Assembly: GCA_045803545.1 (NCBI GenBank) | Contig: JBJMOW010000005.1 | Span: forward strand, 1,408,001 to 1,472,000 | Direction of reading: 5' to 3' | Length of the DNA: 64,000 bases | DNA from: Gemmatimonadaceae bacterium | GTDB lineage: Bacteria; Gemmatimonadota; Gemmatimonadetes; Gemmatimonadales; Gemmatimonadaceae | Part shown: piece by piece, positions 45,708-58,120 of the stretch | Layout of the letters: each line of letters begins with the position of its first letter | How positions within the stretch are numbered: position 1 is the first letter of the stretch | Made by a program: the position numbers and the translations under genes | Notes under the pieces: model-generated | What the model was told of the DNA's origin: nothing | The model's database searches: none | What the model saw: the letters and a program-made list of their open reading frames with translations, nothing else

Positions 45708-47099
45708 TCAAGAGACTTTCGCGCTTTTTTTCAAGTTGTGCGGGCGGCAAAGAACCTGAGCGTTGGCTGTATTTGTCTGGCCGCCTCGACTATGCGGTAT
45801 AACATGATCCGCATCATACTCGCGCCACGCAACCTCAGATTCGTCAGGAGTCTTTCCTTCAGAGAGGCACATCTTGCAGAGCCCATTGTCGCGTCTATAG
45901 ATCGCGATCCGCTCGCTCTCGTCGAATTCACGTTTTTGATCCTTCGTTTTGAGTGACTTCTTCCTGCGGGTCAGGTCCGCAAAAAACAGTTGCCTCAGGA
46001 CCCGAAGTCGAATCTCAATATCCTTCGCCGAATGTTGCCGGTGATCCGAGAAATTCAACACATCTAAATCGGTTTCTCGCCGTTCGCGCCATCGCTGATG
46101 GAATGCAATTGTGAACTTGAGGAAGTCTTTGCTCTCGTCTGGCCCGAATACGTAGTACTGTAAAAGGTGACGCAACAAAAGATAGAACGAGATTATGAAG
46201 TACTCGATCCGAAACTCTTTCATTCCATCCCCGCCTTTTACCATCGGATCCGCCGCGAAAACTTTGTAAAAAGCATTCATGATTTTCAGGGTGTCCTTGG
46301 CAATTGGGAAACTCTCAAATGACTCGTCCCCTATGCCTGTAGGCTGTTCCCATTTCTCAATGAAGTCGCCCACTTCAGTGTCTCTGATGTCCGCAACACC
46401 GTCGTTCTCCTCGAGTATTACTAGCCGCGCGAGCAGAGCGAGATGCTGCATACGGTCGTTGTTTCTGTCGATGACTTTGAAGAATTGATGCTTGTGCGGA
46501 TTTTTGTCGAGCGGACGGTACGACGTATAATCGAAGCTTATATCGTCGGCGTATTTGACTATGAAATTCCGTGACAAGCTAGCTACGCGCGCATGGGCTA
46601 TTTCCATGAAAGTAAGGCTCTCTCCTTGTTGGAGGCGCCAAAAAATGTCAGCTGCAATTCGTTGGTGATCAGGGTTCGTGGGAGTTTCGATCCCTTTGAC
46701 GACATCGGCATTAAACTTCAGCTCCTTGTCGACAAACTTTCGGAGTTCCGTTGGTAGCTGGCTGTATTTTTTCCCCGGTAATGATGCGTGCACATCCTTG
46801 AGCGATGAAGGCAGGACCAGCTCATCGCTGAAGAACTCCTTGGCCGTCGTGATCCGTTGCTGGCCATCGATGATTTCCTTCGCAATCTTTTGATCGGAAA
46901 GCCGAACGTATCTCACCACTATTCGAGGTACGTAATATCGGCGGAAAAGGCTGTCCAGGAGCGCTAACTTCTTTTTACGACTCCATACACTTTTCCTCTG
47001 GTAGGGCGGGCGGACGACGTAATCATCCCAGTAGGCGTAGAAGTCCCTAAGCGGGATACTATCAAAAGTGACGTCATAGCTAGTCAAAGGATCAAACAC
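45708..47099 (-). CDS. DUF262 (ParB/Srx-like) plus C-terminal HNH endonuclease, GmrSD-related
   Basis: PPYQR..VW, IIDGQQRITT, IFWRLQQG; C..C...DHVIPHSRGG.T...N.QVLC..HN; GGAGG RBS before GTG 47099. Confidence 0.9.
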   Translation of the reverse strand: MFDPLTSYDVTFDSIPLRDFYAYWDDYVVRPPYQRKSVWSRKKKLALLDSLFRRYYVPRIVVRYVRLSDQKIAKEIIDGQQRITTAKEFFSDELVLPSSLKDVHASLPGKKYSQLPTELRKFVDKELKFNADVVKGIETPTNPDHQRIAADIFWRLQQGESLTFMEIAHARVASLSRNFIVKYADDISFDYTSYRPLDKNPHKHQFFKVIDRNNDRMQHLALLARLVILEENDGVADIRDTEVGDFIEKWEQPTGIGDESFESFPIAKDTLKIMNAFYKVFAADPMVKGGDGMKEFRIEYFIISFYLLLRHLLQYYVFGPDESKDFLKFTIAFHQRWRERRETDLDVLNFSDHRQHSAKDIEIRLRVLRQLFFADLTRRKKSLKTKDQKREFDESERIAIYRRDNGLCKMCLSEGKTPDESEVAWREYDADHVIPHSRGGQTNTANAQVLCRPHNLKKSAKVS

Positions 47100-47236
47100 G
47101 CCAAGACCTCCGACGTTATTGGCAGGCGAGGCAAATCGCACTGAGTCCGGACGGCTACTTTAGTTGTTTGCCGACGGGCGCACAACTGGGTACGCCCCCA
47201 GGTGCCATAAAGCTCTAAGCGTCGCCTCGCCGCGCT

Positions 47237-47803
47237 TTGATTGACCATCCTAATACTCTAGCCGAGGCAATCCTCGCCAATATCGATATGAACACGGACA
47301 AAGTCTATCAACGCATTGGAGAATTTGTGGTTAGTTACCAATGGGTCGAAGACAAGTACCGGCAGATCGGTCAGTTCATCCTGGATCCGAATCGAACTGT
47401 TTGGCCTCCTACCGCGCTGCGCAATGAGACGACGCAGCAACTGTTAAAAAAGGTCACGCGACTCTACGAGGAAGCACTTTCAACCATGCATCTCCCACAT
47501 GAAGGCGAAATGCGTGCATCCTTCCATGAGACTACGGCTCGCTTCAATAAGCTTCGACAGGTCCGGAACAGAATTCTGCATTCGGTTTACATCGAGATCA
47601 AATCTGGCGGCGAGATCCGGGGTCTTCTCAGAGCAGATATTCAGAATCGCCAAAACGAACAGCAACTCGATCCTCCTGCACAAGAATTCTTGTCAGATAA
47701 GTCATTCGAAAAAATCATGGAACGACTTGGATCCGTCGCTATCGACATTAGCAGGCATTACATGCAGCTACTTCATCGGTTCGGCGTTCATTTTGGGGCC
47801 TGA
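47237..47803 (+). CDS. Putative HEPN-like protein
   Basis: Predominantly helical-looking; IGEFVVSYQWVE helix and RNRILH (R-X4-H). Confidence 0.55.
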   Translation: MIDHPNTLAEAILANIDMNTDKVYQRIGEFVVSYQWVEDKYRQIGQFILDPNRTVWPPTALRNETTQQLLKKVTRLYEEALSTMHLPHEGEMRASFHETTARFNKLRQVRNRILHSVYIEIKSGGEIRGLLRADIQNRQNEQQLDPPAQEFLSDKSFEKIMERLGSVAIDISRHYMQLLHRFGVHFGA

Positions 47804-47857: not shown

Positions 47858-48547
47858 TTATTTCCGCGGCTTGGCTGCATCGGAGGCGCTCCATTCTGGT
47901 CGGGGTGTCCGGCCAGATTGACGAGTCTCTACTCGTATAACGAAGTCGCGAACGTCTGGAATTGAGTAGTCTACCGTCAGTTCGACAACTGCATTGCGCT
48001 TCGTGGCAATCTTTCTGCGCGCAGACCAATCAAAGTCCTGAATTCTTTGGAACGTTCGTCGTCCGCGAGGGAATGGGTACGGCTTCGTCGCGCCGGTATT
48101 CATCGGACTGACTGTCACGCAGTCGCTGTGAACACCGAGAAGAGCGCTGGTATCTAAAATTAGAACCGTGTGCTGTCTATCTCGATACGCGCGCGCATCA
48201 AGCATGCCCTCCAACCTGTGCTCACTAACCCAGAAAAACACTCGGCGATTTATCGTTTCGTACCACTCTTTGGGCGTGAGACCGTCCTGAAGGCAGCGTA
48301 AGAGTCCGCGGTCGTCAAGTGGAAGATTGTCCCTTAGCTCAAAGCTACCGATCCCAGGTCGGGAGAGCCGATTTATTTCGTGGCGCCGTTGCGATTCGAG
48401 CGCTGCTCTTTCTGAAGCGCTAACGGACACGAGATCGAGTATCGCGCTCGTGCTAAGCAACCCGTGTTGTCGGATGCTTGGCCAGCTCCCGTGCGTAGCC
48501 ATGTGATACAGCCACGGGTACTCGCTTATAAACTGGTCGATCTTCAT
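47858..48547 (-). CDS. DarT-like ADP-ribosyltransferase-fold protein
   Basis: LYHMAT.GSWPSIRQHGLLS N-terminus, RVFFW strand, VVELTV...IP catalytic-Glu-like strand. Confidence 0.7.
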   Translation of the reverse strand: MKIDQFISEYPWLYHMATHGSWPSIRQHGLLSTSAILDLVSVSASERAALESQRRHEINRLSRPGIGSFELRDNLPLDDRGLLRCLQDGLTPKEWYETINRRVFFWVSEHRLEGMLDARAYRDRQHTVLILDTSALLGVHSDCVTVSPMNTGATKPYPFPRGRRTFQRIQDFDWSARRKIATKRNAVVELTVDYSIPDVRDFVIRVETRQSGRTPRPEWSASDAAKPRK

Positions 48548-48575: not shown

Positions 48576-50189
48576 CTACCAAATTCGTCTGTCTATAATG
48601 TTCCGGTAGTGAAATCGTGTAACGATCAGCGACACACGTACAGCTGCGACACGTTCTACTTCCTCCACAAACTGAATTGTGTTTTCATCGAGTTGCTCGA
48701 AACGCCTTGCCTTGCGGTTCTCTATCCCGAGATAGTCCGTAAAGCTTAGGGCAATGTCCGTCGGTCCGTTCAAGGAAACCGCTTGCCGCAATTGCTTCCA
48801 ATCAAACTCGGCAACACGTCGGCTACGTTTTGTTGTTGTTGTAATCTCAGCTTCGGTGAGTTCTTTGAGAGGAATTTCCGAGCGGTGGGAGACATCCTGC
48901 CAAGTAATTTCGGTACCCATTGGGCCTGATGTTCCCCCGGCAGGGCTTTCTACCCTAATCGGGTAAGTCCGGCAGACCATTATTGCACGTCGAACCCGGG
49001 ACGGAGCAATTCCCGCATCGGCCAAGCAGCCGCTGACGCTAGTCTCGCGCGACGTGACGAAGGGGTACGCGCCGTGGTGTAAGCTGAGCGCAGTGCCCTG
49101 CGTTCCCTCTAGGAAAACGCGTCTTCCTTGTGCGAACGCGTCGTCCAGAAGGTCAAGAGTGGGGCGCACATACGGCTTGAAGTCTTCAATATCTCGAGCT
49201 AAGCGGACTGGTGGGGGTAAGGCACCCCGAAGAACCTTTCTCGCAGTCGCGAAGCCCACGCCCTGTCCTGTAGAGCCAATCGAGCCTTTGAGAGATTTTC
49301 CCTCTGATGCAATGTCCTCATCCTCGATGATCATCGCTTGTGGGTCCACAAAAAGCCGACCCACTTCCAGTCCACATTGATTGACTTCTTCAAAAAACTT
49401 CGAAGGACGGATCACTGATCCTGGGCCAAGCACGATTTGAGCACCTGGCGCCCTCATTGTGCCCGAGGGAATGTGATAGAATTTCGTGGGTTTCGGCTCC
49501 TCATATACGGTATGGCCGGCGTTCGGTCCGCCAACTCGCACGAGAACGTCGTATTCGGGGGCGAGATAAGCTGCGATGTTCCCCTTACCCTCACTCCCGT
49601 ACTGACCGCCGATCAAAACGTCTACGAGACGCTGGTATGAACGACCATACAACCCGAGGCGAGCAGCAACTCTAGCGAATACGTCTTCGGGACGGGAACG
49701 CGCCGTGTCGATTACAATGTCCGCAAGCGCCGCGAGGCTTTCGACATTTGCTTCAGTCGGGTCTGACCGAACTGCATCATAGCTTTCCAGCTCTTTAACC
49801 GCCCCTTTACGATGGAGGTAGCGACGCTCGAGAATTTCGATCGGCGCAGTCACATGAACATGGACGACACGCGGACCGAAGCCCTTTCTAACAGACTCGA
49901 TTTGGCCTGCCGTCCGAACAGCATCCACAAGCACATTTGTCCCGTCTGGGACACTCGTCACATAGCGAGCAAGCGCATCGCCTACCCACGCGCCCTTTGT
50001 CGCCTCATCAAGAGCGGCTCCGCCACCCTGCAATGCTGTCCGCTCGAGGGCGGAATCCTTAAGTGCAGAAATTAATTCTCGTGTTTTTAGCCATGCGAAC
50101 TTGTAAGTGTCACTCAGGTTCTCGGCGAGTGTAGTCTTGCCGCCAGCAACGGGGCCCGAGAGAAGAACGACCAGCCCCAAACGCTGCAT
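48576..50189 (-). CDS. Fusion of a P-loop NMP-kinase-like domain and a short-form adenylosuccinate synthetase homologue (PurZ/PurZ0-like)
   Basis: GPVAGGKTT, VLVDAVR, TAPIEILERRY; then GGQYGSEGKG, GGPNAGHT, IGSTGQGVG, EGTQG, YPFVTSR, RTYPIRV, TTTTKRSRRV, SFTDY. Confidence 0.9.
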   Translation of the reverse strand: MQRLGLVVLLSGPVAGGKTTLAENLSDTYKFAWLKTRELISALKDSALERTALQGGGAALDEATKGAWVGDALARYVTSVPDGTNVLVDAVRTAGQIESVRKGFGPRVVHVHVTAPIEILERRYLHRKGAVKELESYDAVRSDPTEANVESLAALADIVIDTARSRPEDVFARVAARLGLYGRSYQRLVDVLIGGQYGSEGKGNIAAYLAPEYDVLVRVGGPNAGHTVYEEPKPTKFYHIPSGTMRAPGAQIVLGPGSVIRPSKFFEEVNQCGLEVGRLFVDPQAMIIEDEDIASEGKSLKGSIGSTGQGVGFATARKVLRGALPPPVRLARDIEDFKPYVRPTLDLLDDAFAQGRRVFLEGTQGTALSLHHGAYPFVTSRETSVSGCLADAGIAPSRVRRAIMVCRTYPIRVESPAGGTSGPMGTEITWQDVSHRSEIPLKELTEAEITTTTKRSRRVAEFDWKQLRQAVSLNGPTDIALSFTDYLGIENRKARRFEQLDENTIQFVEEVERVAAVRVSLIVTRFHYRNIIDRRIW

Positions 50190-50201: not shown

Positions 50202-51620
50202 CTAATTGAGTGATAGCGCAGTCTGTTCCGACTGCTGTGTGTTATGCGGGCGCGCGCTAGGAAGGTCGTACACGGTGACCCTCACGCCCTCCGGGCCAAA
50301 CGATGCGCGAATTAACGGCTCTATCACATCCCAGGACCCGCCCGCTTGACCGCAGCCGATTCTCGGCATATGGACTGTCGAGCGCGTCAACGCCGCCAAT
50401 TTTGCGACTTCTGCTAACCCTTTACGTAATGCGTCGTACCTGATCTTCGGCCGGACTGATGGTTTGTATCCGTGCTGGGCAACGATGCTAGCAACCATTA
50501 ATTCGGAATTCACATCTGCGATTCTTACGTTGCCCAGGCAAAGGTGGCGGCGGTCATCCGAAACCCACTGCTGGAAGTCGCTCTGCACGGAGGGGAGCGC
50601 ACTCCTTAAAGCCGAAGCGAACCCGCCTCCTCCCCAGTTCGGCGTCGCGTCATTCACAACGTGCACGATGATTCGCCGGCCACCAACACTTGGCTTGGTA
50701 GCGTCGCCTCGGACATATGTCAGCACGGGCTCTGATGGAGCGACCTCCGAGTCCGCGAATCGCAGCATTCCAACGACCCTCGGCAATCGCGCTCCCGGAT
50801 AGGGAGGGATTCCCACGCATTCAGCGACGAATTGCTTAGCATCCGTCTCTTGTGACACCAGCTGCCACGACTCCAGGCCTTTCGCTGTAAATCCAACGCC
50901 GACACAGCGTGCCGCAATAGTGCCCTGGGGCAGTAGGTCTCCTCGGGCTCCCCGCAAGTCGTTAGGCCAAGAATCCGACCCGATCAAGTACTCAAGCCGA
51001 TAGCGGCCGCGCCGAAGACCATCGTCTATATGCGCTGCGCAGAACATTGCGATCCGCAGATCACTCAACCGTGCAGATCGTATAAAAAGCGCTTCGGTAG
51101 AAACGTCGAACAGTTTTTGTTGATTGACGAGCTGATCGATATCGGTGTGTGTAGCTTTTTGGGAAGCCATTGCACCAAAAGGCATCAGTAATTCTGCAGC
51201 CGCGATGTTGCACAATGCTTCAAGCTGCCATTCGTCCCCTTTGACTTCCGTCCTCGTGGCTCGGTGTCGGACGGTATCCGCGTAATCCGGAAACAGCGTA
51301 TGAGCGATCTCGTGAGCCAAAGAGTAGTTCAGGCGGCCGCGCGGTCGGGTCGGGTTGAACTCGATGCGCGCCGACTTCCCTGTAGGAACCGTACGAGCAT
51401 CCCGGACGTCGGCGTTGGGCACTGTCTTGATTCCCAACAAATCCGCCAATTCGACTGGATCGTACGGAGGTCCACTCCATCCCCGATCAAGCGCACGTGC
51501 GACGGTCTCCCGTGCTTTCTCAGTCACGGCCGCGACCGGATCCACATCTCCGGCCAACGATAGCACCGATGCATTGGTCCAACGGGGGAGGCGCTTTGTC
51601 AATGGCTGGGACGCCAGCAC
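50202..51620 (-). CDS. Fusion of an ImmA/IrrE metallopeptidase and a C-terminal macrodomain (SCO6735/DarG class)
   Basis: AHEIAH (HExxH), EALCNIAAAELLMP; YVRGDAT, HVVND...WGGGGF, VAQHG, MPRIGCGQAGGSW. Confidence 0.9.
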   Translation of the reverse strand: MLASQPLTKRLPRWTNASVLSLAGDVDPVAAVTEKARETVARALDRGWSGPPYDPVELADLLGIKTVPNADVRDARTVPTGKSARIEFNPTRPRGRLNYSLAHEIAHTLFPDYADTVRHRATRTEVKGDEWQLEALCNIAAAELLMPFGAMASQKATHTDIDQLVNQQKLFDVSTEALFIRSARLSDLRIAMFCAAHIDDGLRRGRYRLEYLIGSDSWPNDLRGARGDLLPQGTIAARCVGVGFTAKGLESWQLVSQETDAKQFVAECVGIPPYPGARLPRVVGMLRFADSEVAPSEPVLTYVRGDATKPSVGGRRIIVHVVNDATPNWGGGGFASALRSALPSVQSDFQQWVSDDRRHLCLGNVRIADVNSELMVASIVAQHGYKPSVRPKIRYDALRKGLAEVAKLAALTRSTVHMPRIGCGQAGGSWDVIEPLIRASFGPEGVRVTVYDLPSARPHNTQQSEQTALSLN

Positions 51621-52072: not shown

Positions 52073-52675
52073 ATGCTGACGCTCCAAGATATCGTCGCTG
52101 ATTTCGCGCGCGCATTGAAGGCTGTCGATACGCAGGCGCCAGTTGGTAGTTCGCGGACGCGGAGGTACAAGCCGGGCGTCGGACCGCTGACGGAAGTTGC
52201 AGCTGTGGGAGCTGCCCTCGGACATCTAAGAAAGTTCAGCCGCGAGTACGAGCACGCGTCGCCAGCAACATATCCCAACAGCCGCCAAATTTGCGACCTG
52301 TTAATCCCGGGGGCCTGGGCAATTGAAGTAAAGCTCGTACGACCCTTTGGCGACAATGGTCGCCCTGCAGAACACTGGGCCGAGAATATTCTTTATCCTT
52401 ATAGCGGGACGACGAGCGCAATTGGTGATTGTTACAAGCTCCTGGAATCAACCTTTGCGGAAAAGAAGGCCGTTATCGTATTTGGGTTTGAACATACACC
52501 TCCGCAGCTTCCGTTGGAGCCAGCCATTCGCAGCTTTGAACTGATCGCACCACAGGTTTGTGGGATTGCGCTCGGGCAACGTGTGTCAGCCGATTTCACC
52601 GACTGCATACACCCCTCTCATCAGCAGGGTTATGTATATGGCTGGGAGGTCAACGGCTCGATTAGAGGAGCTTGA
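52073..52675 (+). CDS. PD-(D/E)XK nuclease-fold protein
   Basis: YPNSRQICDLLIPG.WAIEVK. Confidence 0.65.
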   Translation: MLTLQDIVADFARALKAVDTQAPVGSSRTRRYKPGVGPLTEVAAVGAALGHLRKFSREYEHASPATYPNSRQICDLLIPGAWAIEVKLVRPFGDNGRPAEHWAENILYPYSGTTSAIGDCYKLLESTFAEKKAVIVFGFEHTPPQLPLEPAIRSFELIAPQVCGIALGQRVSADFTDCIHPSHQQGYVYGWEVNGSIRGA

Positions 52676-52732: not shown

Positions 52733-53959
52733 ATGAACGGTGCTCCCAAACTAGTTAGCCTTTTTACCGGTGCCGGTGGCTTAGATCTTGGCCTTGAAGC
52801 GTGTGGATTTGAGACTGCGCTTGCGGTCGAGATGGATCCCGATGCTTGCGACACTCTGCGACTGAATCGGACCTGGCCAGTCATACAGGCTGATATCAAC
52901 TCTCCCCAAGCGTCCTCAAAGGATATTCTTAGACAAGCTGGCCTGAAGGTCGGAGAAGCAGCTTTGCTTACGGGCGGGCCACCCTGTCAGCCTTTTAGTA
53001 AATCGGGTTATTGGGCAGGCGGTGACTCGAAGCGGCTGAACGATCCTCGTGCCTCAACGCTCGCTGCATATCTGCGGGTTCTGCGCGACATTCAGCCTCA
53101 AGCGTTCGTCATTGAGAACGTGCCGGGTATTGCATTCAGCGCCAAAAGCGAAGGCATCGAATTTTTAGAACGGTCAATCGATTCCATCAACAAAGAAATC
53201 GGAACTCGCTACTCGTTCAGACCCAAGCTTCTCAACGCCGCCGACTACGGCGTCCCGCAGGAGAGGCAACGCGTATTCATCGTAGGCCACCGCGACGGCA
53301 TGCAGTTCAAGTTTCCGGCCAAGACACATTACGCGCCCGATGAGCACTCTGCAGTATCGCAAGACTCGCACTATTTCACGGCATGGGACGCTATAGGAGA
53401 CCTCGAATCAGACGATGACGAATCGCTTCGGCTGTCAGGTAAGTGGGCAGATCTGCTACCTTCGATCCCCGAAGGTCAGAACTACCTTTTCCATACGATG
53501 CGGGGCGATGGAATTGCTCTTTTTGGTTGGAGGCGCCGCTATTGGAGCTTTCTTCTAAAACTCGCGAAGGCTCTTCCGTCTTGGACCATCGCGGCGCAGC
53601 CCGGACCCGCGATCGGACCGTTCCATTGGAAAAATCGGCGTTTATCGGCTACTGAGCTTTGCCGTTTGCAAACTTTCCCGGAGGGATACAAAATCGCGGG
53701 GCGGCGTAATTCGATTCAACGACAGTTGGGGAACGCTGTTCCGTCGGCGCTGGCTGCACAGCTGGGAGCGGCGATTCGCAAACAGCTTCTCGACGGAGGT
53801 GAGTGCATATCCGCCGCCGCTCTCTTTCCGAAGAGACGTGGGGCACCACCGCCGCCCGAACAGCCGCAGTCCGTTCCCGACAAATACTTACATCTCGAAG
53901 GCGAACACGCGGCGCATCCCGGAACGGGAAAAGGATACGGCGCACTCACTAGAGTTTGA
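52733..53959 (+). CDS. DNA (cytosine-5)-methyltransferase
   Basis: Motif I LFTGAGG, IV GGPPCQPFS, VI ENVPG, VIII YGVPQERQR, X QLGNAVP. Confidence 0.96.
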   Translation: MNGAPKLVSLFTGAGGLDLGLEACGFETALAVEMDPDACDTLRLNRTWPVIQADINSPQASSKDILRQAGLKVGEAALLTGGPPCQPFSKSGYWAGGDSKRLNDPRASTLAAYLRVLRDIQPQAFVIENVPGIAFSAKSEGIEFLERSIDSINKEIGTRYSFRPKLLNAADYGVPQERQRVFIVGHRDGMQFKFPAKTHYAPDEHSAVSQDSHYFTAWDAIGDLESDDDESLRLSGKWADLLPSIPEGQNYLFHTMRGDGIALFGWRRRYWSFLLKLAKALPSWTIAAQPGPAIGPFHWKNRRLSATELCRLQTFPEGYKIAGRRNSIQRQLGNAVPSALAAQLGAAIRKQLLDGGECISAAALFPKRRGAPPPPEQPQSVPDKYLHLEGEHAAHPGTGKGYGALTRV

Positions 53960-53962
53960 GTG

Positions 53963-55132
53963 TTACCCCTGCGCTGCTTTCATTAGAACTTCTTCGAGAT
54001 CGTTCGACCATGAATCGTCGACGGACACCTTGTTCGATAGCTTTCCAACACAGGTTGGATGCGCTTGAAGCGCCTGCGTAGTCTTGCTCCGAAAGGTCCA
54101 CGTCTCTGACTGGGCATGCAGACATGCCGCGACAACGTCGAAATCGCTGGGGCTATAGTACCTTGAGCACGGATTGGCGAGCGACGCCCTCGTCCGCATA
54201 AAATCGAGCCTCGCATTCCCAAATTTATCGGGCTTACGCAGTACGTTCTTACATTCGAGAAGAACGGGGTTACCGCGAGTCATAACAACACGGAAATCGG
54301 GCGATCCGTCTCCAGTTAACTGCTCGCAGCGCTTTAGTCTCTTAAACTGCTTTAATACATCTGCGAGGTGGCGCTCAGCTACCCAGCCGCGTACCGCCAT
54401 CTTGAGGCGCGGCGCTTGGCTTATTAAGTCGAGAATTTCAGAGCGAGGAAGATCGAATTCTTTCTCGAGAGCGTGGACTCGCTCGAGAGAGACAATCGGC
54501 AGCACATTGGACGGATCTGACTCCCGTTCGAGTGTCACAGATCGAAAACGTTCGGCGACTAGCTGGCGATGCCCTTGATCCTCCCCAAGCACCTCACGCT
54601 CAAAAAGGATGTATCGGAGGAAGTTCTCCGGCTTGCCACCCACAACGACCTCGACAGGTGAATCAGGCGTGCCGCGTTGATCACGCTCCCACGCATACCA
54701 GCCCTGCGAAAGAATTTCGTCCACGTGATGTTGCTTGAACTCCTTCGAGATGAAAAAGCGTGTGGGACTATTTAGGACAGGGTCGACGCCAACGAAGAAG
54801 TCTTGCTCGGGGTTGACGCCGAGCATGAGAGTCGTGTAAAGACCGTACGGATCCTGCCAGAGGTTATGAAGCACACCATCTTTCGACCCATACTTTATCT
54901 GAAACCGGTGCTCGTCGGCGGGGCGATTCTTGGTGACCCTTTCATTGGCTAAGAACGCATAAGCAACGATTCCCAACCTGTATCCCGAAGGAGTCTCGAA
55001 GGTCACTTGGAATGGAGCGGTGCCCGGTTGCGAGGCGCGGATTATAGAGCACCCACAGACTTCTAGGGACCTATAGATGAAGCGGGCGATCGGCTCTCGT
55101 GCGGCTTTGCTTACGCGATAGACTTCGAACAT
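53963..55132 (-). CDS. Putative restriction endonuclease: unassigned N-terminal domain plus PD-(D/E)XK domain
   Basis: RGWVAE, GSPDF, LLECKN, YSPSDFDVVAACL; lies between the MTase and vsr. Confidence 0.7.
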   Translation of the reverse strand: MFEVYRVSKAAREPIARFIYRSLEVCGCSIIRASQPGTAPFQVTFETPSGYRLGIVAYAFLANERVTKNRPADEHRFQIKYGSKDGVLHNLWQDPYGLYTTLMLGVNPEQDFFVGVDPVLNSPTRFFISKEFKQHHVDEILSQGWYAWERDQRGTPDSPVEVVVGGKPENFLRYILFEREVLGEDQGHRQLVAERFRSVTLERESDPSNVLPIVSLERVHALEKEFDLPRSEILDLISQAPRLKMAVRGWVAERHLADVLKQFKRLKRCEQLTGDGSPDFRVVMTRGNPVLLECKNVLRKPDKFGNARLDFMRTRASLANPCSRYYSPSDFDVVAACLHAQSETWTFRSKTTQALQAHPTCVGKLSNKVSVDDSWSNDLEEVLMKAAQG

Positions 55133-55596
55133 GCGCGGTGGCGAAGAAGTCTCTCGATCCTATCAACAGCCTTCGAAGGGCGGCGAAGCAAATCGGTTTC
55201 CCACACTCGTATGACCTTCCATCCCGCGGCCCGCAACAGCCGGTTAATCCGGCGGTCACGCTTGATATTTGATTCAATCTTGGGAATCCAATAGTCGGCG
55301 TTACTCCCGTTGAGTAGCCGTTCACGTCGCGCTTTCCAGTGGCGCCCGTGCCAGAAATCGCCGTCGAGAAACACCACTATTCGATCCTCAGGAAACGCGA
55401 AGTCCGGTCGCCCCAAGAAACCGGAAGAGGCAGATTTTGCTCGTAAACCGCGACTTCTTAACGCAGTGCGAAGGATTCGTTCAGGCTTAGTATTCGAGCT
55501 TCGATTGCCTTGCTTTGCGCGCGACGCATGGGGCGAGCTAGACGAAAAATTGGAGAACCGCGGAACTCTCCTTCCGATTTGCTGAGAACGACCCAT
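55111..55596 (-). CDS. vsr: Very short patch repair endonuclease
   Basis: NTKPE, GRPDF, FLDGDFWHG, YWIPKIESNIKRD, GWKVIRVWE. Confidence 0.93.
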   Translation of the reverse strand: MGRSQQIGRRVPRFSNFSSSSPHASRAKQGNRSSNTKPERILRTALRSRGLRAKSASSGFLGRPDFAFPEDRIVVFLDGDFWHGRHWKARRERLLNGSNADYWIPKIESNIKRDRRINRLLRAAGWKVIRVWETDLLRRPSKAVDRIERLLRHRACSKSIA

Positions 55597-55953
55597 GCGG
55601 ATAAAGAAAAACGGCGTGTGCTCGCCGGGATGAGGTTTCCCTGCTAGGCGTCCGGACCAGAACTCGCGTGATCCAGACCAAAACGTGTTGCGAGTTACGT
55701 CAGGGGCAGAACGACTCTTGTCCCAATGTAAAGTCAAATCGCTACTCATTCAAATCTGCTGGTCGGCGAATCCTGCCCGGGACGCTGGTCGCGTTCATCT
55801 GAGGCTTAATCCTCGCAGAAGATCGCCGTGCCTACGGCTATTTCGACGTCCGGCGAGGTGGATATGAGGCTACCGTCCGGAATGGTTCCGAGTTGCGCGG
55901 GTCAAGCGCCACCGCCAACAGGAAACCCCCAGCCCGACGGAACTTGCCCGTCA

Positions 55954-58043: not shown

Positions 58044-58047
58044 AAAG

Positions 58048-58120
58048 TTGCCCCTCCTGGGCTCGAACCAGGACTCTCCTGATCCAGAGTCAGGCGTGTT
58101 GCCAGTTACACCAAGGGGCA
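58048..58120 (-). tRNA. tRNA-Gln (CTG), CCA not encoded
   Basis: TGCCCCT/AGGGGCA acceptor stem, CCTGA-CTCTGGA-TCAGG anticodon arm, GGTTCGAGCCC T arm. Confidence 0.96.

What the first reader, a model, noticed from the sequence alone, without database searches (positions are those of the whole stretch)
49650..50189. NMP-kinase-like domain fused in front of the synthetase
Seen: Walker A GPVAGGKTT, DAVR, lid-like APIEILERRY and ADIVIDT in the same ORF as the synthetase. Known: housekeeping PurA has no kinase domain, and Z-phage pathways rely on separate kinases. Inference: a dedicated kinase phosphorylates the unusual monophosphate or supplies its substrate, making a self-contained mini-pathway.
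Basis: partly seen in the sequence, partly recalled or inferred. Interest (0 to 1): 0.7.

Follow-up and report, generated by a model that had tools for sequence, protein, structure and literature searches.

The report
Bacterial Z-base enzyme beside DNA-tagging toxin
A bacterial gene joins a nucleotide kinase to an enzyme like the one some phages use to make the unusual DNA base Z, and across many bacteria it sits next to a predicted DNA-tagging toxin, which suggests an undescribed anti-phage system that turns the phages' own Z chemistry against them.

Summary
The fusion is real. One 537-aa ORF (48576-50189, minus strand) joins an NMP-kinase-fold domain (residues 1-183) to a PurZ0-like synthetase: Ser for PurA's Asp13 in 222 of 222 rows, GTP-type Asp kept. 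All 119 listed non-self homologues cover at least 91% of it. DUF7002 accompanies it in 71 of 71 assessable metagenome loci and 11 of 11 plasmid records; the macrodomain is replaceable (a YfbR-like HD nucleotidase instead in 7 alphaproteobacterial plasmid loci). The cassette is patchy (3 of 301 genomes), often flanked by defence genes, and the host keeps purA, purB and gmk. The same fusion occurs in phage replication modules without the toxin, three times with a DmtZ/MazZ-like gene, which supports Z-nucleotide synthesis. Best model (about 0.5, all inferred): infection-released dGMP becomes dZTP, Z enters replicating phage DNA, and DUF7002 ADP-ribosylates it. No activity is shown. It is not self-contained: it needs host PurB and Ndk. 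Ten paper searches and three look-ups in this scan's notes found no description.

The parts
49641..50189 (-). N-terminal P-loop NMP/dNMP-kinase-like domain (res 1-183 of the 537-aa ORF): Walker A, R50, D89-x-x-R92, H110-x-H112, R123, D157
   Evidence: (PHROG guanylate kinase 61 of 85, dNMP kinase 57 of 85 family members)
48576..49640 (-). PurZ0-like adenylosuccinate-synthetase-family domain (res 184-537): S199 (PurA Asp13 position), T450, F483, D485, Y486; R455 kept
50202..51620 (-). IrrE/ImmA-type Zn-metallopeptidase domain (HExxH 103-107, E134) + middle domain + ALC1/SCO6735-like macrodomain (about res 300-455; N323-D324, Q382); ends 12 bp before the kinase-PurZ0 start; true start codon uncertain
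   Evidence: PF06114; capP 2e-17, DarG 1e-7
47858..48547 (-). DUF7002 protein, DarT-like ADP-ribosyltransferase fold (invariant H15, R72, D73, N150, E189 in 58 of 58); starts 28 bp after the synthetase stop
   Evidence: PF22531 4e-67; VIA Z 10.3 to DarT1 8baq, rmsd 3.8, 166 aligned; 9.4 to DarTG2 7omu, tied
45708..47141 (-). Flanking GmrSD_N + HNH nuclease gene (defence-island neighbour, not part of the cassette)
52733..55749 (.). Flanking C5 cytosine methylase (+), MTaX1 protein (-) and Vsr endonuclease (-); the island 46-56 kb has GC 0.50-0.555 against about 0.60 elsewhere

Best explanation
A mobile anti-phage cassette that makes 2-aminoadenine (Z) deoxynucleotides and uses them to arm a DNA ADP-ribosyltransferase. 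Shown here: the domains, their residues, the conserved gene order and the defence-island setting. Inferred: (1) the PurZ0-like domain condenses dGMP with aspartate, using GTP; (2) host PurB gives dZMP; (3) the fused kinase takes dZMP to dZDP, so the cassette does not depend on the host's guanylate kinase, and host Ndk gives dZTP; (4) dGMP is scarce in healthy cells and rises when a phage degrades host DNA, so the pathway switches on at infection; (5) polymerases put Z opposite T in replicating DNA; (6) DUF7002 ADP-ribosylates Z-containing single-stranded DNA, plausibly at the 2-amino group as DarT1 does on guanine, and stalls phage replication. The macrodomain (type I) or a YfbR-like nucleotidase (type II) keeps leak from harming the host. 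The same transferase would also hit natural Z-genome phages.
For: Z determinants: S199 in 222 of 222 rows, F483 and D485 in 221, T450 in 205 (rows not dereplicated), mapped on S-2L PurZ S23/T273/F306/Q308 against host PurA D18/G299/K332/D334 (PMC8342488 passages; bioRxiv 2025.10.22.683976 section 8). Z-cluster company for the same fusion: NDT+MazG-like gene in 3 of 7 distinct toxin-free phage contigs and YfbR-like HD gene in 7 of 8 plasmid loci fetched; both families mark Z-clusters (PMC12884076 abstract; bioRxiv section 9). Coupling to DUF7002: 71 of 71 metagenome loci with at least 400 bp downstream, 11 of 11 full-length plasmid records. The macrodomain is dispensable (absent in 8 of 8 plasmid loci fetched), and DUF7002 stands with neither macrodomain nor PurZ in 4 loci (L154-L157), as expected if it is harmless without Z. 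Defence setting: PADLOC hits in 24 of 82 flanking ORFs, 11 of 14 loci, against 4 of 29 control ORFs, all generic domains; patchy spread, 3 of 301 and 4 of 401 genomes. Feasibility: cellular polymerases incorporate Z and a Z-cluster converts E. coli DNA (PMC8342488 section 11 and passages).
Against: No activity, expression or phage protection is shown. The macrodomain resembles SCO6735, which removes ADP-ribose from thymidine and in simulations did not engage the guanine adduct productively (PMC9411070 passages); this fits a thymine target better than a Z or G amino group. DUF7002 is tied between DarT1 and DarT2 (Z 10.3 against 9.4), and profile comparisons aligned only its first 50 residues, so its base is undetermined. 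R455 (PurA R303 position, ribose 2'-OH contact) is kept as R in 168 and K in 51 of 222 rows, so a ribonucleotide substrate is not excluded; 16 rows have Gly at T450 as in PurA. The type I cassette has no MazZ or DatZ, and incomplete Z-clusters give less Z (PMC8342488 section 11). Three loci (L002, L092, L136) have neither macrodomain nor HD gene in view, and L002 has a different ART-like gene. The host has its own gmk and phage L084 its own dNMP kinase, so the fused kinase may be redundant. Whether the four orphan DUF7002 genes are expressed is unknown.
Confidence: 0.48

Rival explanations
1. Kongming-like signalling: kinase-PurZ0 makes a Z (or succinyl-Z) nucleotide that acts as a diffusible messenger and allosterically switches on DUF7002, as a transferase or NADase, perhaps sensed through the macrodomain; Z never needs to enter DNA.
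For: Same logic as Kongming, where dNMP kinases help make dITP that activates an NAD-consuming effector (PMC13276650 passages). No DatZ/MazZ in type I, so only small amounts of Z nucleotide are expected. A SIR2-like gene lies next to DUF7002 in L034/L035.
Against: DUF7002 models as a single 229-aa DarT-like domain with no extra sensor domain. The macrodomain keeps hydrolase-type residues and is absent in type II and III loci.
Confidence: 0.2
2. Two parallel effectors under one control: DUF7002 is an ordinary DarT-type toxin on thymine (or guanine) reversed by the macrodomain, while kinase-PurZ0 independently drains dGMP/dGTP and poisons the pool with dZTP, like dGTPase and dCTP-deaminase defences.
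For: SCO6735-like macrodomain residues point to thymidine-ADP-ribose (PMC9411070). The kinase domain weakly matches the PADLOC dCTP-deaminase model (E 2.9e-5), which I recall has a kinase+deaminase layout. Z-cluster expression is toxic in E. coli (PMC8342488 section 11).
Against: It does not explain why DUF7002 stays with the fusion when the macrodomain is lost (8 of 8 plasmid loci), nor how macrodomain-free and orphan DUF7002 genes are tolerated.
Confidence: 0.14
3. Guard model: the cell constantly makes a little Z nucleotide that keeps DUF7002 off; phages that consume or destroy it release the toxin, and phages carry the fusion alone as a counter-defence.
For: Phage copies fall at four or more places inside the bacterial clade and lack the toxin.
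Against: Orphan DUF7002 genes, including one left after an IS-type disruption removed the other genes (G330), should then be lethal. Phage copies with NDT+MazG-like genes look like Z-genome builders.
Confidence: 0.08
4. No Z at all: the enzyme is a divergent PurA (IMP or ribo-GMP substrate) with an adenylate-type kinase that refills adenine nucleotides spent by NAD-consuming ADP-ribosylation.
For: Best NCBIfam and PDB scores are to archaeal PurA (PRK04293 274 bits against PurZ 211, both under cut-off). R455 kept. Top kinase folds are adenylate-kinase-related.
Against: Asp13 is 99% conserved in PurA and Ser marks the PurZ group (PMC12884076 section 24); here Ser in 222 of 222. The host already has canonical purA. 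Z-cluster genes accompany phage copies.
Confidence: 0.1

Closest known systems
Phage PurZ0 / PurZ Z-clusters (Gordonia phage Archimedes PurZ0, PDB 7VF6; S-2L PurZ, 7ODX; phiVC8 PurZ, 6FM1) with DatZ, MazZ, DmtZ, DutZ, DpoZ
   Same: Short archaeal-type synthetase with Ser at the Asp13 position, Thr and Phe/Tyr determinants; Asp kept at the NTP site as in Gordonia phage Sapo PurZ0; YfbR-like or NDT+MazG-like neighbours in some copies.
   Different: Kinase fused at the N-terminus (0 of 219 matching isolate-phage records cover 80% of the query); forms its own clade of 37 rows, SH-aLRT 100 in a quick tree; mostly cellular, next to an ADP-ribosyltransferase, with no polymerase in the cassette; keeps Arg at the PurA R303 position.
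DarTG1 (DarT1-NADAR), DarTG2 (DarT2-DarG macrodomain), DarHTG
   Same: DarT-like transferase fold with invariant His and Glu, usually in an operon with a macrodomain, in defence islands.
   Different: DUF7002 is a separate Pfam family with no PADLOC DarT hit; its constant partner is kinase-PurZ0, not the antitoxin; the macrodomain is SCO6735/ALC1-like and fused to an IrrE peptidase domain.
Kongming (dITP signalling; from review PMC13276650)
   Same: A base-converting enzyme plus dNMP-kinase activity upstream of an NAD-using effector.
   Different: Amination (G to Z) rather than deamination; the kinase is built in rather than borrowed from the phage; the effector is DarT-like rather than HAM1-SIR2 (composition recalled).
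dCTP deaminase / AvcD and dGTPase nucleotide-depletion defences
   Same: P-loop kinase domain fused to a base-modifying domain (layout recalled; weak PADLOC match).
   Different: Synthetase rather than deaminase, and tied to an ADP-ribosyltransferase.
NMP kinases: Sulfolobus SSO1041 (3LW7), phage dNMP kinases (T4 gp1, 1DEK), guanylate kinase
   Same: Fold, Walker A, DxxR and lid arginine.
   Different: At most about 22% identity; acceptor specificity cannot be read from the fold (3LW7 Z 18.7, phosphomevalonate kinase 16.1, 1DEK 11.8).

Membership tests
NMP/dNMP kinase (P-loop) | NMP-kinase fold with Walker A lysine, DxxR motif and lid arginine | tested here: met
   Fold; K18 in 215 of 222 rows (7 gaps), D89 222, R92 220, R123 222
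NMP/dNMP kinase (P-loop) | Phosphorylates a nucleoside monophosphate; which one | not testable with these tools
   Family matches split between guanylate, dNMP and thymidylate kinases (61, 57, 34 of 85)
PurZ/PurZ0 | Ser in place of PurA Asp13 | tested here: met
   S199 in 222 of 222 rows; criterion from PMC12884076 section 24
PurZ/PurZ0 | Thr (phiVC8 T262 / S-2L T273) and Phe, Tyr (phiVC8 F295, Y298) determinants | tested here: met
   T450 205 of 222 (Gly in 16), F483 221 of 222, Y486 at least 90% of 59; phiVC8 numbering mapped by offset from S-2L
PurZ (ATP-using, S-2L/phiVC8 type) | Asn/Gln at the NTP site (S-2L Q308) excluding GTP | tested here: not met
   D485 in 221 of 222, as in host PurA and Sapo PurZ0; that this Asp means GTP use is recalled
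PurZ/PurZ0 | Loss of the PurA R303 ribose contact; loop insertion after V241 (S-2L) | tested here: inconclusive
   Insertion after V413 present in the window protein, shorter in L001/L134/L135; R455 kept (R 168, K 51 of 222), Lys in Sapo, Leu in S-2L
Characterised phage PurZ0 clade | Groups with Gordonia-type PurZ0 in a tree; NCBIfam PurZ cut-off | tested here: not met
   Separate clade from Sapo and S-2L in a quick tree; NF038379 211 bits, cut-off 300
PurZ/PurZ0 | dGMP + Asp to dSMP activity | not testable with these tools
   Needs an enzyme assay
Canonical PurA | Catalytic Asp13; housekeeping copy | tested here: not met
   Ser instead; host has a separate Asp-bearing purA on C6
DarTG toxin-antitoxin | DarT-fold transferase with His and catalytic Glu | tested here: met
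   Top fold matches DarT1/DarT2; H15 and E189 invariant in 58; E189 as the catalytic Glu is by motif, not by residue-level superposition
DarTG toxin-antitoxin | Match to DarT family models; obligate adjacent DarG or NADAR antitoxin | tested here: not met
   No PF14487 or PADLOC DarT hit; macrodomain absent in 8 of 8 plasmid loci fetched and in 4 orphan loci; NADAR was not searched for in those loci
DarTG toxin-antitoxin | ssDNA ADP-ribosylation and its base specificity | tested here: inconclusive
   DarT1 and DarT2 tied; Asn at the presumed base-reading position also occurs in DarT2-type sequences; profile alignments too short
SCO6735/ALC1-like macrodomain | Asn27 and Gln85 equivalents | tested here: met
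   N323-D324 at least 90% and Q382 at least 93% of 66 rows, mapped by motif spacing to PMC9411070; Atlas structure neighbours are actinobacterial macrodomains and CHD1L
Kongming | Adenosine deaminase, HAM1 and SIR2 components (recalled) | tested here: not met
   None of the three cassette genes matches them
Anti-phage defence system | Protects against phage when expressed | not testable with these tools
   Only context evidence:

The most novel reading that the evidence does not exclude
Bacteria have captured the Z-base pathway as a weapon: a kinase-PurZ0 fusion turns dGMP released during infection into dZTP, the invading genome is labelled with Z, and DUF7002 is the first ADP-ribosyltransferase that reads Z, so self and non-self are told apart by a base the host forces into the phage DNA.
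Probability: 0.4. Interest if true: 0.93.

Novelty: categorically new. Interest (0 to 1): 0.78.

Why it matters
In the papers I could read, Z synthesis is a phage trick for escaping host restriction, finished by host kinases. Here a clade of kinase-fused PurZ0 enzymes is mainly cellular and tied to a DarT-like toxin. If the model holds, it gives the first host use of the Z base, a new immune logic (mark the invader with a modified base, then attack the mark) and a candidate defence against Z-genome phages. It would also give tools: a one-protein route to dZDP and a Z-reading enzyme for detecting Z-DNA. Each part is of a known kind; the combination is what I could not find described. The same fusion in uncultured phages points to Z-genome lineages outside the known PurZ and PurZ0 groups. 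All of it is testable with three genes in a laboratory strain.

Tried and rejected
Assembly artefact: rejected. Housekeeping or back-up purA: rejected as the main reading. Prophage Z-cluster in this window: no DatZ-, MazZ- or YfbR-like ORF was found with my own profiles in 42-57 kb, and the neighbours are restriction-type genes; the rest of the window was scanned only against PADLOC (29 ORFs). Chloramphenicol phosphotransferase (Pfam CPT passes its cut-off): not favoured, only 25 of 85 members match and it ranks 11th by fold. Binding between kinase-PurZ0 and DUF7002: the complex job gave no answer. Expression: no RNA holder listed. Base specificity of DUF7002 by profile alignment: failed. DUF5664 in five phage contigs: none, but the control did not ring; S-2L DatZ/MazZ and Sapo genes as single queries found nothing in those contigs, which is weak. 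The ~455-aa gene of the type II loci stayed unidentified (best hint E 0.15 to acetyl-CoA carboxylase). A viral scan for DUF7002 could not be run from the alignment. The careful tree did not finish; only the quick tree is used. Paper searches returned 0 papers; others listed none describing this cassette in title or abstract start; term look-ups in PMC13069673 and PMC9503650 found no adenylosuccinate, PurA or PurZ. Subscription papers (the 2021 Science PurZ papers, the 2023 PurZ0 paper, the Kongming paper) and all supplements were not seen and could mention these genes. This scan's notes gave one unrelated hit and two blanks.

Full report
Observation. The stretch 49650-50189 is the first 180 codons of a 537-aa ORF at 48576-50189 on the minus strand. 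A model of residues 1-183 from an 85-row alignment is confident (pLDDT 95.5) and matches NMP kinases: Foldseek ranks the adenylate-kinase-related protein 3lw7/3h0k first (TM 0.75), and VIA gives Z 18.7 to 3lw7, 16.1 to phosphomevalonate kinase, 15.4 to uridylate kinase and 11.8 to T4 dNMP kinase. Family members match phage guanylate kinase (61 of 85), dNMP kinase (57) and thymidylate kinase (34) profiles. So the fold is settled and the acceptor is not. Catalytic-type residues are conserved over 222 fused rows, not dereplicated: K18 in 215 (7 gaps), R50 222, D89 222, R92 220, R123 222.

The fusion is real and old. All 119 listed non-self homologues cover 91-100% of the query at 58-65% identity (the best 120 of 5509 hits, which include ordinary PurA relatives). 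The best 80 of 487 metagenome matches are all fused and form 73 clusters at 90% identity; this set is biased towards fusions by the query. One contig of run X1 spans the junction without differences, though X1 may be the source sample. The kinase family also occurs apart: of the top 150 profile hits, 60 are fused or begin the fusion, 79 are kinase-only with short tails (free genes or fragments) and 11 have other tails. A second, free kinase gene precedes the fusion in L002 and L092, and in L092 the fused copy has lost R92. In G660 the kinase is the C-terminal domain of the gene upstream of an unfused PurZ0-like gene. The link between this kinase family and PurZ0 therefore survives rearrangement.

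The synthetase is PurZ0-like. Aligned with S-2L PurZ, Gordonia phage Sapo PurZ0 and the host's own PurA, it has Ser199 where PurA has the catalytic Asp (222 of 222 rows), Thr450 (205), Phe483 (221) and Tyr486, the positions reported to admit dGMP and stack the NTP in PurZ (PMC8342488 passages; bioRxiv 10.1101/2025.10.22.683976 section 8; Asp13 criterion in PMC12884076 section 24). It keeps Asp485 where S-2L has Gln308, as Sapo PurZ0 does; that this means GTP use is recalled from the PurZ0 paper, which I could not read. It has the loop insertion after Val413 but keeps Arg455, the PurA ribose contact (R 168, K 51), so a ribonucleotide substrate is not excluded. NCBIfam scores are under cut-off for both archaeal PurA and PurZ. 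In a quick tree of 72 rows the 37 kinase-fused synthetases form one clade (SH-aLRT 100) apart from S-2L and Sapo (the careful search did not finish). The host has a canonical purA, purB and gmk elsewhere, so this copy is accessory.

The surroundings change the reading. Upstream, 12 bp away, is a gene with an IrrE-type HExxH domain and a macrodomain. The macrodomain has N323-D324 and Q382, matching by spacing the residues needed by SCO6735, which removes ADP-ribose from thymidine (PMC9411070 passages). Downstream, 28 bp away, is DUF7002, which models at pLDDT 95.9 and matches DarT1 (Z 10.3, rmsd 3.8, 166 aligned) and DarT2 (Z 9.4), a tie. Among the 80 metagenome loci, DUF7002 is present in 71 of 71 with at least 400 bp downstream (69 directly downstream), and the macrodomain is directly upstream in 67 of 70 with at least 600 bp upstream. 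All 11 plasmid records with a full-length fusion have DUF7002 adjacent. I fetched 8 of the 11: none shows the macrodomain; 7 alphaproteobacterial loci carry instead a YfbR-like HD nucleotidase and an unidentified ~455-aa gene. DUF7002 also stands alone in 4 loci, one of them a cassette broken by an IS-like fragment. The cassette is patchy: 3 of 301 genomes of the host's phylum, none of the 4 other genomes of its genus, and 4 of 401 in the class of G407. Here it lies in a low-GC island between a GmrSD-HNH gene and a methylase-MTaX1-Vsr block. In 14 metagenome loci with long flanks, 24 of 82 flanking ORFs in 11 loci hit PADLOC models, including type I and II R-M, Lamassu, AbiE and CBASS, against 4 of 29 control ORFs from the rest of the window, all generic domains; 3 loci had no hit, and the control is one genome.

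Phage copies point to Z. Of 51 viral loci, 11 contigs carry the fusion: 3 with DUF7002 and 8 (7 distinct) without, several among polymerase, primase and helicase genes. Six of these were scanned whole and have no DUF7002, macrodomain or IrrE match; three of the six are under 35% complete. Three of the 7 (L083, L086, L091) encode an NDT + MazG-like fusion near the gene, the families of DmtZ and MazZ in known Z-clusters (PMC12884076 abstract; PMC8342488 passages). The other four show no such gene in what I scanned, and no DatZ or DutZ was found. Phage rows fall at four or more places inside the bacterial clade; the direction of transfer was not tested. None of 219 matching isolate-phage records covers 80% of the fusion.

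Mechanism. I commit, at about 0.5, to a Z-armed transferase: dGMP released when a phage degrades host DNA is converted by the synthetase and host PurB to dZMP, the fused kinase and host Ndk give dZTP, polymerases place Z in replicating DNA, and DUF7002 ADP-ribosylates Z-containing single strands. DarT1 modifies the guanine 2-amino group (PMC11543638 passages), which Z shares, and cellular polymerases do incorporate Z (PMC8342488 section 11). The model explains why the constant pair is synthetase plus transferase, why a hydrolase of the adduct and a hydrolase of the nucleotide can replace each other, and why orphan transferases are tolerated. Every catalytic step is inferred. Against it: the macrodomain class favours thymine adducts, the target base could not be read from alignments, type I lacks MazZ and DatZ, some loci show no safety gene, and the host's Gmk may make the kinase redundant. 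Rivals are a Kongming-like Z-nucleotide signal (0.2), two parallel effectors (0.14), a non-Z PurA role (0.1) and a guard model (0.08). The IrrE domain most likely couples the cassette to DNA damage or single-stranded DNA, by analogy with CapP (PADLOC match; function recalled); no cognate repressor gene is conserved in the operon as far as I looked.

Novelty. Each part belongs to a known kind, but the protein is not a canonical PurA, not in the characterised PurZ0 clade, and the cassette is not a standard DarTG. Ten searches of the open library and three look-ups in this scan's notes found no description. I read passages or named sections of nine papers, none in full, and no supplements; subscription papers on PurZ, PurZ0 and Kongming were not available and could mention these genes. 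Verdict: observation confirmed, first reading partly right, and the real object is a widespread, undescribed candidate defence cassette built on Z-nucleotide synthesis. Interest 0.78.

Noticed in passing
L198:5150-9980 (G660:C2): A different PurZ0-like cassette beside a type I R-M system: exonuclease-like + kinase gene, unfused Ser-type synthetase, dCTP-deaminase-like gene and a second kinase-like gene. Related to L137 (Sinorhizobium medicae plasmid: YfbR-like, synthetase, DCD-like, ThiF-like). Suggests a second family of cellular PurZ0 systems.
   Followed up: partly
L134:7297-8673 and homologues in L135, L149-L153: Conserved ~455-aa gene of no detected family, always with the YfbR-like gene in macrodomain-free cassettes; weak hint of an ATP-grasp fold (E 0.15).
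   Followed up: partly
L083, L084, L086, L088/L101, L089, L091, L094: Uncultured phage contigs with the kinase-PurZ0 fusion and no toxin; candidates for new Z-genome lineages. L089 and L094 carry a UDG-domain PolA, DnaB and primase around it.
   Followed up: partly
L156:5199-6598 (G330): Remnant cassette: a short stub of the IrrE-macrodomain gene fused to an IS-like fragment, followed by DUF7002, next to Vsr and a cytosine methylase as in the window.
   Followed up: partly
L138:3369-8990 (Rhizobium leguminosarum plasmid): An Asp-type short PurA clustered with folE, purB, queE, queC and IMP dehydrogenase: possibly a deazapurine nucleoside biosynthesis cluster.
   Followed up: no
L002:6279-7004: A different ART-like gene, unrelated to DUF7002 by my profile, upstream of the free kinase and the fusion in Tardiphaga; an HExxH protein follows, with a homologue after DUF7002 in L087.
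   Followed up: no
L034:2690-4439 and L035: SIR2-like gene and a divergently placed DUF7002 next to the fusion, with no macrodomain.
   Followed up: no
window 52073-52675 (+) and 47237-47803 (+): Two ORFs of the defence island with no Pfam, NCBIfam or PADLOC match; the first precedes the cytosine methylase and may be its restriction partner.
   Followed up: no
window 58047-58120 (-): tRNA-Gln(CTG) about 2 kb beyond the low-GC island; a possible integration site, not tested.
   Followed up: no
PMC12884076 section 24: The text says PurZ0 and PurZ prefer ATP and GTP respectively, the reverse of what I recall and of the ATP/dATP use shown for S-2L PurZ in PMC8342488.
   Followed up: no
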